Shown here: in pieces, positions 37,660 to 40,381 of the stretch
Layout of the letters: every line of letters starts with the position of its first letter
How positions within the stretch are numbered: the first letter of the stretch is position 1
Origin: Enterobacter phage CC31
Sequence record: NC_014662.1
Length of the DNA stretch: 64,000 nt
Direction: 5' to 3' (one strand)
Program-made: the position numbers and the translations under genes
Notes under the pieces: model-generated
The model's input: the letters and a program-made list of their open reading frames with translations, nothing else
Told to the model about the DNA's origin: nothing
Database searches by the model: none

Positions 37660-37889
37660 TTAACTTCCACAATAAACCATGTATCATGAATTAATTGATT
37701 AGATTCAAGTCCGAATTCTTCAAAACCGTGCGCTTTTTCGTATGCATGGACAACGTTACGAACATAGAGACGCGCTCCACGAACTTGAATAATTGAACCG
37801 ACCTTTGGAATTTCAGAATCACGGATGTTATAAACTTCTGCGATAGGGTCTTCTTCATTATTTTGAATTACAATTCTAAGATGTGGCAT
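37656..37889 (-). CDS. hypothetical protein
   Basis: 77-aa ORF. Confidence 0.45.
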   Translation of the reverse strand: MPHLRIVIQNNEEDPIAEVYNIRDSEIPKVGSIIQVRGARLYVRNVVHAYEKAHGFEEFGLESNQLIHDTWFIVEVK

Positions 37890-38935
37890 TATGCTTTACT
37901 CACAATAACAACGCGTTCAGTAGATTCACCAACAATTTCAATGTGATGAGCCAGAACTATATGAAAATAGCCATTAATCATAATAGAAGAGTTTAATTTG
38001 AAGTCAGCATCGCACAGTTGCTCATCAGTTTGAGCATAAACGATACTTCCCAAAGCATTTGTAAATTTAGTAATCATACAGCCATTTTTTCCTTTGATTG
38101 TTGGGTGACTTTCATAGTTAACTAACTTGAAGTCTTCGATAACAGCAAATCGGTTTATCCACTTAAGCTGAGATGAAGTTTGCCAGCGCTCAAACTCAAT
38201 TGGAAAATCAATTTCAAGATTGCAGAGTTCTTTTGGCTCTCGACGAAGAATTTCTTCGCACTGCTCAATATGATTTGAATAAATGTGAGTGTTGCCGCCA
38301 GTAAATACCAAATGACCAGGTTTTAAGCCAGTCATTTTAGCTACGATATGAATCAAAGCAGCATACGACGCAATATTGAATGGTAGACCAAGGAATACAT
38401 CTACCGACCTCTGGTACCACTGGAGGTCCAGAAGCCCATTGCGTACGTTGAACTGATATATCATATGGCATGGTGGAAGCGCCATCTTAGGGATGTCTAG
38501 AGGGTTCCAGGCGGTCACAATTTGACGGCGGTCATTAGGTAGTTCTTTGATTCGGTTAATAACCAAAGTCAATTGGTCAACACCCATAAAGTCTCGCCAC
38601 TGCTTACCATAAACCGGACCAAGCTCGCCGTCGACATATCCCATTGAACGAGCTTGATTTTCGTAGTTGTCGTCCCAAACAGTTTTACCATTTGTCGGAG
38701 ACCCATGCTGACGAAGACGCAAATCGTTTACATTCGTTGAACCGGACAAGAACCACAGAAGTTCTGCAATACATGCTTTCCAAGCAAGCTTCTTGGTAGT
38801 CACTGCTGGAAAACCTTCTTGCAAATCAAATCGTAATTGAGTACCAAACACAGCACAAGTGCCAGTTCCTGTGCGGTCGTCAGTTACATAGCCTTCATCA
38901 AAGATGTGTTGAATTAGTTGTTGATATTGTTTCAT
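37889..38935 (-). CDS. td: thymidylate synthase; as sequenced fused in frame to a 62-codon downstream ORF through an A6 run (38085-38090); canonical TS end predicted near 38075
   Basis: TS motifs (DRTGTGT, PPCH active-site Cys, WNP, QWYQRSVD); with A5 instead of A6 the frame would read IKGKMAV-stop and the next ORF (MITKF...) would start at an ATGA overlap. Confidence 0.88.
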   Translation of the reverse strand: MKQYQQLIQHIFDEGYVTDDRTGTGTCAVFGTQLRFDLQEGFPAVTTKKLAWKACIAELLWFLSGSTNVNDLRLRQHGSPTNGKTVWDDNYENQARSMGYVDGELGPVYGKQWRDFMGVDQLTLVINRIKELPNDRRQIVTAWNPLDIPKMALPPCHMIYQFNVRNGLLDLQWYQRSVDVFLGLPFNIASYAALIHIVAKMTGLKPGHLVFTGGNTHIYSNHIEQCEEILRREPKELCNLEIDFPIEFERWQTSSQLKWINRFAVIEDFKLVNYESHPTIKGKNGCMITKFTNALGSIVYAQTDEQLCDADFKLNSSIMINGYFHIVLAHHIEIVGESTERVVIVSKA

Positions 38936-39282
38936 TGGTTTCCTGGACGAAAGAAGATTTCACGGCCTTGTTTATCAAAACGACCAAAAACAGTCATCGT
39001 ATTACCGGAGATAACAACGTTACCTTTAGCAATATGATGAATTGTTTGACGAGTGTTCATCATAATTTTAACACCTAAACCATGAGCAATTCTGATGCCT
39101 TCATCAGCTGCCCAAGTGTCATTGATTTCAACGTCAATACGATAAAATCCATGAGGAATTGTTTTGTACAGCTCAGGTTTACGCTTATACTGTTCAATAG
39201 TAGGAGGATTACCCTCGATTACTAAAGCCCAATTCTTTTGGGCTTCTTCTTGTATCAACGTCAAATGATTATTGATTTTCAT
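38932..39282 (-). CDS. hypothetical protein, paralog of the adjacent upstream ORF
   Basis: C-terminal KGNVVISGNTMTVFGRFDKQGREIFF matches NGNVSFSNGCVTMIGDFFKSGSQVFF of ORF 39269..39589. Confidence 0.5.
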   Translation of the reverse strand: MKINNHLTLIQEEAQKNWALVIEGNPPTIEQYKRKPELYKTIPHGFYRIDVEINDTWAADEGIRIAHGLGVKIMMNTRQTIHHIAKGNVVISGNTMTVFGRFDKQGREIFFRPGNQ

Positions 39283-39589
39283 ATTGTTCTTCCAACGGAT
39301 TGAAGAATACTTGACTTCCGCTTTTAAAGAAGTCTCCAATCATTGTAACACACCCATTTGAAAAGCTAACATTACCGTTCATTGAAGCAAGCAGTACTGA
39401 TTTCATTGAACGACAAAGCTCAATTGGATTATTTCCGGTGCCGTCATATATAGTGTACTCACCATTACGGTATTCTCTGATATCTCCAACCGCAAAGGAT
39501 AACTCATACACGCCGTGTACTTTGTTCCAGTTCTTCCATTTCTTTTGAGTTTTGTAAGTCTCTAACAAACGAAGATTATATCCGTTCAT
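39269..39589 (-). CDS. hypothetical protein, paralog of the adjacent downstream ORF
   Basis: 106 aa; shared C-terminal motif with ORF 38932..39282. Confidence 0.5.
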   Translation of the reverse strand: MNGYNLRLLETYKTQKKWKNWNKVHGVYELSFAVGDIREYRNGEYTIYDGTGNNPIELCRSMKSVLLASMNGNVSFSNGCVTMIGDFFKSGSQVFFNPLEEQYENQ

Positions 39590-40169
39590 AGACAGTCTCC
39601 GTTAATGAAGTTAGTTCATCACAACGTACCCAAGAAGTTTCTACCATTTGGAATGCGTTTTCCCATGCTGGATATGAAATGAAGCTCATGTCCAGAGTGA
39701 CATCAGAGTTAACGCGATGCTTCTTCTGTATTGACGTTTGGACTATACGGTCTGCGTATGGCTGAGCCGTCTCTAGAATCCCCTTACCACCAATAACAGA
39801 ATAGTTATCATTCGGAAGAAGACGAATACGAATGCCACCATGATTTGTGTAGTAGTTATTAGTTTTGTCAAGGAAAGCTTTAAATTCTTCTGGGCTCATG
39901 TAGCCATCAGGAAATAAACCATCTTTTGCTTGAGCAAATGGACGATTCATATCTTGGACAACAATGCACTTGCGACCTTTAAGAGCAGTAGGCATGCTCA
40001 TCCAAGTTTTTGCACCCATGATAACGACAGTGTCTTTAGTGCGTTTTGCAAAGTTTTGCATATCACGCTTGATATGACCCCAAGGCAAGCCATCTTTAAG
40101 ACCAAAAGCATATTCGTTTTGACCGTCAACGGTCTTGGTTCCGCAATAAGCATATACGAGTTGTAGCAT
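39576..40169 (-). CDS. frd: dihydrofolate reductase
   Basis: DHFR-like N-terminus MLQLVYAYCG...FGLKDGLPW; synteny with td. Confidence 0.88.
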   Translation of the reverse strand: MLQLVYAYCGTKTVDGQNEYAFGLKDGLPWGHIKRDMQNFAKRTKDTVVIMGAKTWMSMPTALKGRKCIVVQDMNRPFAQAKDGLFPDGYMSPEEFKAFLDKTNNYYTNHGGIRIRLLPNDNYSVIGGKGILETAQPYADRIVQTSIQKKHRVNSDVTLDMSFISYPAWENAFQMVETSWVRCDELTSLTETVYERI

Positions 40170-40381
40170 TATGATTTCCTGCATTTGATGAGTGCGTTGT
40201 AAAGGCGACGAGTAAATTCAATATTAGCTTCACGACCAATACGAGAGAAGAAGCCTTTAGTCATATCATCATATGATTGCTTTAAGCCAGTAGTGATTTC
40301 ATCGACAGCCTTATTATATCCGGATTTATGAGCTTTGGCTTTAGCTTCTTCAAACTCTTCAAGAGTCATTGTGATTTGCAT
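40169..40381 (-). CDS. hypothetical protein (frd.x)
   Basis: 70-aa ORF. Confidence 0.45.
   Translation of the reverse strand: MQITMTLEEFEEAKAKAHKSGYNKAVDEITTGLKQSYDDMTKGFFSRIGREANIEFTRRLYNALIKCRKS

What the first reader, a model, noticed from the sequence alone, without database searches (positions are those of the whole stretch)
38932..39589. Tandem paralogous small genes between td and frd
Two adjacent ORFs (about 116 and 106 aa) share a clear C-terminal motif (KGNVVISGNTMTVFGRFDKQGREIFF versus NGNVSFSNGCVTMIGDFFKSGSQVFF). They sit between frd and td, which I recall as adjacent and overlapping in T4. A locally duplicated insertion inside a core nucleotide-metabolism operon is a typical signature of accessory, often host-interaction, genes.
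Basis: partly seen in the sequence, partly recalled or inferred. Interest (0 to 1): 0.5.

Follow-up and report, generated by a model that had tools for sequence, protein, structure and literature searches.

The report
Old paralog pair between frd and td
The two small genes between the phage's dihydrofolate reductase and thymidylate synthase genes are real, anciently duplicated members of a phage-only family of unknown function that sits at this spot in most T4-like phages, so T4's lack of it is the exception and the finding is largely ordinary.

Summary
ORF B (39269-39589, 106 aa) and ORF A (38932-39282, 116 aa) lie on the minus strand between frd and td. They are true paralogs: BLASTP E=3e-8, and both match PHROG 1928 at E<=3e-30.

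The pair is not a recent or local insertion. The same short-then-long pair sits between frd and td in at least seven genera of T4-like phages. Single copies occur in Jiaodavirus, Tegunavirus, Muldoonvirus and most Tequatrovirus, including T2 and T6 (RB32ORF229c). One metagenomic contig carries three copies. T4 and a few relatives have none.

Both genes are under purifying selection (dN/dS 0.06-0.17) and overlap their neighbours' start and stop codons. No match to Pfam, NCBIfam, PADLOC or PDB sequences was found.

Function remains unknown. My best inference is a dispensable, ligand-binding helper protein made together with DHFR and TS. Interest is low to moderate.

Seen in passing: an extra A in a homopolymer fuses td to a downstream 62-aa ORF.

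The parts
39269..39589 (-). ORF B. Short-type family member, 106 aa, pI 6.6. Identical to CC31p239.
   Evidence: ORF list. phrog_1928 E=2.7e-30. 100% identical to the cluster named 'hypothetical protein CC31p239'. AF2 model pLDDT 90.8, pTM 0.83. dN/dS 0.06-0.15.
38932..39282 (-). ORF A. Long-type family member, 116 aa from the ATG, pI 9.3. Some records annotate it from an upstream TTG at 39339 as 135 aa.
   Evidence: phrog_1928 E=9.3e-39. Homologues start at MKINN. AF2 model pLDDT 81.5, pTM 0.74. dN/dS 0.06-0.17.
39166..39228 (-). Long-type-specific insertion in ORF A (residues 19-39, ALVIEGNPPTIEQYKRKPELY). It lies between the first two strands of the barrel and contains the conserved P-T-I-x-x-Y-K-x-x-P motif.
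   Evidence: Alignments. Per-column conservation in 23 long-type representatives. Model has a short helix at residues 29-34.
39576..39589 (-). 14-nt overlap of the frd stop with the ORF B start. A GGAG lies upstream of the ATG.
39269..39282 (-). 14-nt overlap of the ORF B stop with the ORF A start.
38932..38935 (-). ATGA overlap: the ORF A stop (TGA) with the td start (ATG).
39576..40184 (-). frd (dihydrofolate reductase), the upstream neighbour. Relatives annotate the start 15 nt further in, at MLQLVY.
   Evidence: Pfam DHFR_1 4.8e-18. phrog_316..
37889..38935 (-). td (thymidylate synthase), the downstream neighbour. Here it is a 348-aa ORF because it is fused to a 62-aa ORF.
   Evidence: Pfam Thymidylat_synt 3.7e-96 on residues 2-283. 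phrog_12548 on residues 287-348..

Best explanation
Shown:
- ORF B and ORF A are two expressed-type protein genes of a CC31/PG7-like Karamvirus.
- They are ancient paralogues of one small family found only in T4-like phages (PHROG 1928, also labelled 'RB32ORF229c').
- The family's fixed home is the frd-td junction of Tevenvirinae, at 0 to 3 copies.
- Both genes are under purifying selection.
- Their start and stop codons overlap those of frd and td, so they are made from the same message and probably in step with DHFR and TS.

Predicted: each protein is one small beta-barrel with OB-like order (b1-b2-b3-helix-b4-b5). The long type adds a conserved loop, P-T-I-x-x-Y-K-R-x-P, between b1 and b2.

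Inferred mechanism (weak): these are non-structural, non-toxic early or middle proteins. They would bind a ligand on the barrel face carrying the family-invariant residues: W18, H44-G-x-Y47, and the G100-R-F-x-K104-x-G106 hairpin. The ligand could be single-stranded nucleic acid, a nucleotide, or a partner protein of the nucleotide-precursor or replication machinery.

On this reading they are a dispensable helper of that machinery, not a host-killing or host-range factor. The short and long forms would be sub-functionalised copies. Each can work alone, because single-copy lineages keep either type.
For: Paralogy.

Family size and restriction:
- The profile search found 47 matches among 1.84 billion 50%-identity representatives; 46 are stand-alone proteins of 49-148 aa, and the other is a 995-aa repeat protein I discard as a false positive.
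- Every context examined lies between frd and td in T4-like genomes.

Distribution: tblastn finds 124 (ORF A), 255 (ORF B) and 580 (P0059) phage records, including T2, T6, RB14, RB32 and RB51.

Old duplication with fixed order.

Purifying selection: dN/dS 0.06-0.17 for A and B, against 0.07 for frd and 0.03-0.06 for td.

Operon structure: gene boundaries overlap in nearly all genera. No internal promoter signal above chance.

Non-virion and non-toxic: phiR1-RT Gp236 was among the 94 non-structural HPUFs screened. Its relative CFU was 0.40 and it was not a hit (PMC6893735).

Dispensable: T4 lacks it at the junction. An HMM search of about 90 kb of T4 found nothing (best E 0.33).
Against: No functional evidence exists for any member.
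- Family members are only mildly basic: median pI 8.7-8.8, net charge about +2, and ORF B has pI 6.6.
- Overlapping gene boundaries are common throughout T4-like early regions, so coupling to frd and td is not specific evidence of a shared function.
- The slot is polymorphic in Tequatrovirus, and the proteins diverge faster than td and nrdA (28-52% against 75-83% identity between genera). Both fit an accessory or host-interaction role equally well.
Confidence: 0.4

Rival explanations
1. Host-interaction or anti-defence accessory genes. The small proteins would neutralise a host factor, for example a nucleotide-depleting or nucleotide-signalling immune system. They are kept or lost according to the host.
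For: - Copy number varies from 0 to 3 between lineages.
- In Tequatrovirus the slot is empty, filled by a family member, or filled by an unrelated 68-aa ORF.
- Between genera the proteins diverge faster than td and nrdA.
- T4 grows without it.
- They are small early-region proteins with no enzymatic domain.
Against: - dN/dS is 0.06-0.17, like the neighbouring housekeeping gene frd, with no sign of diversifying selection.
- Position and order are fixed in the genera examined, which infect many different host genera.
- The phiR1-RT orthologue is non-toxic in E. coli.
- No similarity to anything characterised. No anti-defence library was available to test against.
Confidence: 0.25
2. The short and long proteins form a non-covalent bridge or scaffold that links DHFR and TS, or tethers the dNTP-synthesising complex to DNA. 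This would be functionally analogous to the junction region of bifunctional DHFR-TS enzymes.
For: - The genes lie exactly between frd and td in every genome examined and overlap both.
- The short-then-long order is fixed.
- The predicted fold is OB-like.
- From general knowledge, not tested here: T4 nucleotide-precursor enzymes associate with each other and with gp32.
Against: - T4 and some relatives need no such protein.
- Single-copy lineages keep either type alone, so an obligate A:B pair is unlikely.
- In T6, EP01 and phiR1-RT the gene is separated from td by an untranslated gap, and in T6 and EP01 also from frd.
- There are no interaction data.
Confidence: 0.1
3. A recent, phage-specific local duplication or insertion, or chance ORFs or relics of a mobile element.
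For: Only the tandem arrangement and the absence from T4.
Against: - Orthologues of each copy exist in seven genera in the same order.
- The copies share 27% protein identity and only a 17-nt DNA remnant.
- Purifying selection is strong.
- There is no nuclease or transposase domain and no flanking repeats.
Confidence: 0.02

Closest known systems
PHROG 1928, also annotated 'RB32ORF229c hypothetical protein' in T6, RB14, RB32 and RB51, CC31p239, and phiR1-RT Gp236
   Same: Both window proteins match the family model over their full length. They share its length range, its invariant residues (W, HGxY, GN, GRFxKxG, F, P) and its genomic position between frd and td.
   Different: Nothing differs: they are members. 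The family has no assigned function. The split into short and long subtypes, and their fixed tandem order, does not appear in any annotation or paper I could find.
OB-fold domains (SSB/PriB, RPA, YgiW/BOF, MCM N-terminal domain, aaRS anticodon-binding domains)
   Different: - No sequence or profile match to any OB Pfam family or PDB chain.
- Charge is only mildly basic.
- Ligand binding is untested.
Other small conserved hypothetical genes of the T4 gene 32 to nrdA region (frd.1/DUF5417, frd.2, frd.3, nrdA.1/DUF4326, nrdA.2)
   Same: The same kind of object: short, overlapping, early-region ORFs of unknown function, conserved across T4-like phages.
   Different: No sequence relationship. The family HMM finds nothing in the T4 32-nrdB region. 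Unlike those genes, this family is absent from T4 itself.

Membership tests
PHROG 1928 / RB32ORF229c family | Full-length match to the family profile | tested here: met
   E=9.3e-39 (ORF A, residues 4-116) and 2.7e-30 (ORF B, residues 4-105). BLASTP of the T6 RB32ORF229c protein against ORF B gives E=3.7e-9.
PHROG 1928 / RB32ORF229c family | Location between frd and td in a T4-like genome | tested here: met
   Window. All 20+ related loci.
OB-fold | Five-stranded closed beta-barrel with a helix between strands 3 and 4 | tested here: inconclusive
   [not shown]
OB-fold nucleic-acid-binding proteins (SSB-like) | Binding of single-stranded DNA or RNA | not testable with these tools
   Only indirect clues: conserved aromatic and basic residues and a median pI of 8.7-8.8.
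OB-fold nucleic-acid-binding proteins (SSB-like) | Sequence or profile similarity to a known OB family | tested here: not met
   No Pfam, NCBIfam or PDB-sequence match. Weak Pfam hits are each confined to one of 47 members.
Homing endonuclease or mobile-element cargo | GIY-YIG, HNH or another nuclease or transposase domain, with flanking repeats | tested here: not met
   No such domain. No meaningful repeats.
Toxic host-takeover proteins | Growth inhibition on expression in the host | tested here: not met
   Literature only, and for an orthologue. phiR1-RT g236 had relative CFU 0.401 and is not among the four toxic hits (PMC6893735). The window proteins themselves are untested.
Virion structural proteins | Detection in purified particles | tested here: not met
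   Literature, for an orthologue. Gp236 was kept in the set left after removing proteins detected in virions by LC-MS/MS (PMC6893735).
Known anti-phage defence system components (PADLOC) | Match to a defence-system protein model | tested here: not met
   No hit at E<=10. No library of anti-defence proteins was available.
T4 dNTP-synthetase complex component | Physical association with TS, DHFR, RNR or gp32 | not testable with these tools
   Only synteny and overlapping gene boundaries.

The most novel reading that the evidence does not exclude
The short and long barrel proteins are a previously unrecognised accessory module of the phage thymidylate cycle. They would physically couple DHFR and TS, or tether the nucleotide-precursor complex to DNA, through an OB-like binding face and the conserved P-T-I-x-x-Y-K-R-x-P loop. 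The laboratory phage T4 would have lost this module, which would explain why it was never found genetically.
Probability: 0.1. Interest if true: 0.6.

Novelty: new member of a known kind. Interest (0 to 1): 0.27.

Why it matters
This matters mainly as a correction of perspective. T4, the reference phage, is atypical at the frd-td junction. T2, T6 and most Tevenvirinae carry one to three copies of a conserved, selected, uncharacterised small barrel protein there.

That makes the family a well-defined and easily testable 'dark matter' target. It is widespread, under purifying selection, non-toxic, confidently modelled, and has natural knock-outs (T4) and natural single and double variants to compare.

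If it turned out to serve nucleotide-precursor synthesis, or to counter a defence, it would fill a gap left by T4-centred genetics. As it stands it is one of many conserved hypothetical genes in T4-like early regions.

Tried and rejected
- **Known-family searches.** Pfam, NCBIfam, PADLOC and a PDB sequence/profile search found nothing. Weak Pfam hits are each limited to one of 47 members.
- **Word-index homologue searches.** These returned only 7, 6 and 13 proteins. The exhaustive profile search was needed.
- **P0048.** This 995-aa protein with four matching stretches is a repetitive protein and a false positive.
- The search for related loci with the family alignment failed because no conserved stretch was found. 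The afdb50 fold library was unavailable.
- **BFVD Foldseek.** It gave only family members plus weak matches to ~160-aa Aeromonas phage proteins. I tried to see whether those lie between frd and td in phiAS5 but fetched the wrong 40 kb, so this stays unresolved.
- **Is T4's empty junction linked to the td intron?** Rejected. Intron-bearing phages include both empty junctions (T4, SG1, HY03) and filled ones (T6, PST, NBG2).
- **Is the ~205-nt junction insert in D5505-type phages a decayed family member?** Rejected. It is an unrelated 68-aa ORF.
- **Remote homologue elsewhere in T4?** None was found in 1-80 kb and 138-148 kb. The remaining roughly 79 kb of T4 was covered only by tblastn.
- **Literature.** Searches for the locus tags, the PHROG id and 'frd-td' found nothing.
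- **Other scans.** Rfam and tRNA scans of the window were empty. The promoter scan was at chance level.

Full report
**What is in the window**

The minus strand of 37.9-40.2 kb carries, in order:
- frd (39576..40184; Pfam DHFR_1, E=4.8e-18)
- ORF B (39269..39589; 106 aa)
- ORF A (38932..39282; 116 aa from its ATG)
- td (start at 38935; Pfam Thymidylat_synt, E=3.7e-96)

The frd stop overlaps the ORF B start by 14 nt. The ORF B stop overlaps the ORF A start by 14 nt. The ORF A stop and td start share an ATGA.

The window is 97% identical to Klebsiella phage KaAlpha and about 90-93% identical to PG7-type Karamvirus genomes. ORF B is 100% identical to 'hypothetical protein CC31p239' from a 165,540-bp contig. 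That is the published length of phage CC31 (PMC2993671). The window is therefore CC31 or a near-identical phage.

**Checking the observation**

The two proteins align over 74 residues at 27% identity, E=3e-8. Against 300 shuffles of ORF B the observed score is 33.5 bits; the shuffle mean is 8.7, sd 5.9 and maximum 19.2.

Independently, both match the same profile, phrog_1928 ('unknown function'), over their full length at E=9.3e-39 and 2.7e-30. A family HMM finds only these two ORFs in the 64-kb window.

**How wide the family is**

An exhaustive profile search of 1.84 billion representative proteins found 47 matches. One, a 995-aa repeat protein, is a false positive. The others are stand-alone proteins of 49-148 aa; the 49-aa match was left out of the family alignment.

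They split about evenly into two types:
- a short type like ORF B
- a long type like ORF A, which has a ~20-residue insertion after the conserved QKxW motif

tblastn against 50,697 phage records finds ORF A-like genes in 124 records and ORF B-like genes in 255. The most divergent short-type representative, P0059, is found in 580 records. Of those, 363 are at least 90% identical and are Tequatrovirus, including T2, RB3, RB14 and RB51; T6 carries the gene too. It is annotated 'RB32ORF229c' there.

Every genomic context I opened places the gene or genes between frd and td of a T4-like genome.

**Copy number and order**

| Copies | Lineages |
|---|---|
| 0 | T4, RB55, RB59, SG1, HY03, G28 and a few others |
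| 1, short type | Most Tequatrovirus; Jiaodavirus |
| 1, long type | Tegunavirus; Muldoonvirus |
| 2 | Karam-, Moon-, Gelderland-, Marfa-, Winkler-, Kagamiyama- and Kanagawavirus |
| 3 | One metagenomic contig |

Wherever there are two copies, the short type is next to frd and the long type next to td. In a neighbour-joining tree the long-type proteins of six genera form a clade with 86% bootstrap support. Deeper nodes are unresolved. At the DNA level the two window genes share only a 17-nt remnant, at the QKxW codons.

The duplication therefore predates the split of these genera. It is not a local or recent event.

T4's direct frd/td overlap is real, but it is the minority state even in its own genus. 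When the T4 junction is used as a query, most Tequatrovirus records match in two pieces separated by a ~416-nt insert, which is this gene. Some instead have a ~205-nt insert. The ~205-nt insert encodes an unrelated 68-aa ORF. Whether the junction is empty does not track the td intron.

**Are they functional genes?**

Within Karamvirus, dN/dS is 0.06-0.17 for ORF A and 0.06-0.15 for ORF B. For comparison it is about 0.07 for frd and 0.03-0.06 for td.

Between genera the proteins keep 28-52% identity. That is somewhat below frd (43-59% in most genera) and far below td (75-83%).

Gene boundaries overlap in nearly all genera. No promoter-like signal above chance lies inside the block. These are real, constrained genes, co-transcribed and probably translationally coupled with frd and td. 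Such overlaps are common throughout T4-like early regions, so this is weak evidence for a shared function.

**What the proteins look like**

There is no Pfam, NCBIfam, PADLOC or PDB-sequence match. Weak Pfam hits are each confined to a single member of 47.

AlphaFold2 models are confident: ORF A has pLDDT 81.5 and pTM 0.74; ORF B has pLDDT 90.8 and pTM 0.83. Both show strand-strand-strand(s)-helix-strand-strand, which is the order of an OB-fold barrel. The long-type insertion forms a loop with a short helix between the first two strands.

Foldseek against viral models returns family members, plus weak matches to ~160-aa Aeromonas phage proteins that I could not place.

The family-invariant residues are W18, H44-G-x-Y47, G87-N, the G100-R-F-x-K104-x-G106 hairpin, F111 and P113. 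The long type adds P-T-I-x-x-Y-K-x-x-P. Members are only mildly basic, with median pI 8.7-8.8.

**Experimental data from the literature**

The phiR1-RT long-type orthologue, g236 (CCI88810.1; my locus L012), was one of 94 non-virion hypothetical proteins screened for toxicity in E. coli. Its relative CFU was 0.401. It was not among the four toxic proteins, and BLASTp/HHpred gave 'no significant hits' (PMC6893735).

I found no paper that mentions the family by any locus tag.

**Interpretation**

Firmly established: this is an ancient, selected pair of paralogues belonging to a near-universal Tevenvirinae family at the frd-td junction, which T4 lacks.

The function is not established. My best inference is a dispensable, non-structural, ligand-binding small barrel protein made alongside DHFR and TS. 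It would act as a helper or adaptor of the nucleotide-precursor or replication machinery. The short and long forms would be sub-functionalised copies that can each work alone.

The main rival is an anti-defence or host-interaction role. Copy-number variation and slot polymorphism in Tequatrovirus favour it. Low dN/dS, fixed position across many host genera and lack of toxicity do not.

A stricter 'DHFR-TS bridge' model is possible but unlikely, given T4's independence of the gene and the single-copy lineages.

**Verdict**

The 'local insertion' framing is wrong, and the accessory-gene interpretation is neither shown nor excluded. This is a member of an already catalogued family of unknown function. 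Interest is low to moderate.

**Side observation on td**

The window's td ORF is 348 aa rather than 286. One extra A in a homopolymer run shifts the frame seven codons before the normal stop (...IKGKMAV*). The run is 38085-38090: six A's here and in PG7, five in UFV01, and GAAAA in KaAlpha.

The shift bypasses the ATGA stop/start overlap and fuses td to a 62-aa ORF (phrog_12548). That ORF is a separate gene in UFV01 and RZH and is missing from KaAlpha. This may be a homopolymer sequencing error in older records, or a real fusion affecting the TS C-terminus.

Noticed in passing
window 38085-38090 (A-run, minus strand); td ORF 37889-38935: td is a 348-aa ORF instead of about 286 aa. One extra A in a homopolymer, seven codons before the normal stop, shifts the frame. 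The ending becomes ...IKGKNGC-MITKF... instead of ...IKGKMAV*, and td is fused to a downstream 62-aa ORF (phrog_12548). PG7 carries the same 6-A run and annotates a 1047-nt td. UFV01 has five A's, KaAlpha has GAAAA, and both UFV01 and RZH annotate separate genes. This is either a homopolymer sequencing error or a real fusion altering the TS C-terminus.
   Followed up: partly
window 37889-38077 (minus): The 62-aa ORF downstream of td (phrog_12548, unknown function) is a presence/absence polymorphism within Karamvirus. It is present in the window, PG7, UFV01 and RZH. In KaAlpha it is precisely absent, as a 186-nt indel.
   Followed up: partly
L010 (T4 145109-145112); L031 (T6); L030 (D5505); Within Tequatrovirus the frd-td junction has three states: empty (T4, RB55, RB59, SG1, HY03, G28), a family member (T2, T6, RB14, RB32, RB51 and most others), or an unrelated 68-aa ORF (D5505, IME537, PYps11T). 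Which state a phage has does not correlate with presence of the td intron and I-TevI.
   Followed up: yes
L009 4224-5288: A metagenomic T4-like contig carries three tandem family members (148, 106 and 95 aa) plus a further 76-aa ORF between frd and td.
   Followed up: partly
window 40169-40184: The frd ORF can start at 40184 (MQEIIMLQLVY...). Related records annotate the start 15 nt downstream (MLQLVY..., 594 nt). The true start is ambiguous.
   Followed up: no
BFVD hits E1A2K1 (Aeromonas phage phiAS5) and A0A2H4YFY2 (Ah1): About 160-aa uncharacterised Aeromonas phage proteins give weak Foldseek matches to the ORF A model (E 8e-4 to 2e-3, TM about 0.55). They may be remote relatives. I could not locate their genes: the phiAS5 stretch I fetched (L022) contains neither frd nor td.
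   Followed up: partly
window 39229-39245 and 39536-39552: The only DNA-level similarity left between the two paralogues is a 17-nt stretch (82% identical) that encodes the conserved (A/T)QK(N/K)W motif.
   Followed up: yes
L011 1105-1710 (Klebsiella phage Potts1); L021 (Citrobacter phage CkP1): Annotation problems in public records. Potts1 labels its frd homologue 'putative single stranded DNA-binding protein'. CkP1 has td split into two CDS with another ORF between them, which could be an intron, an insertion or a frameshift.
   Followed up: no
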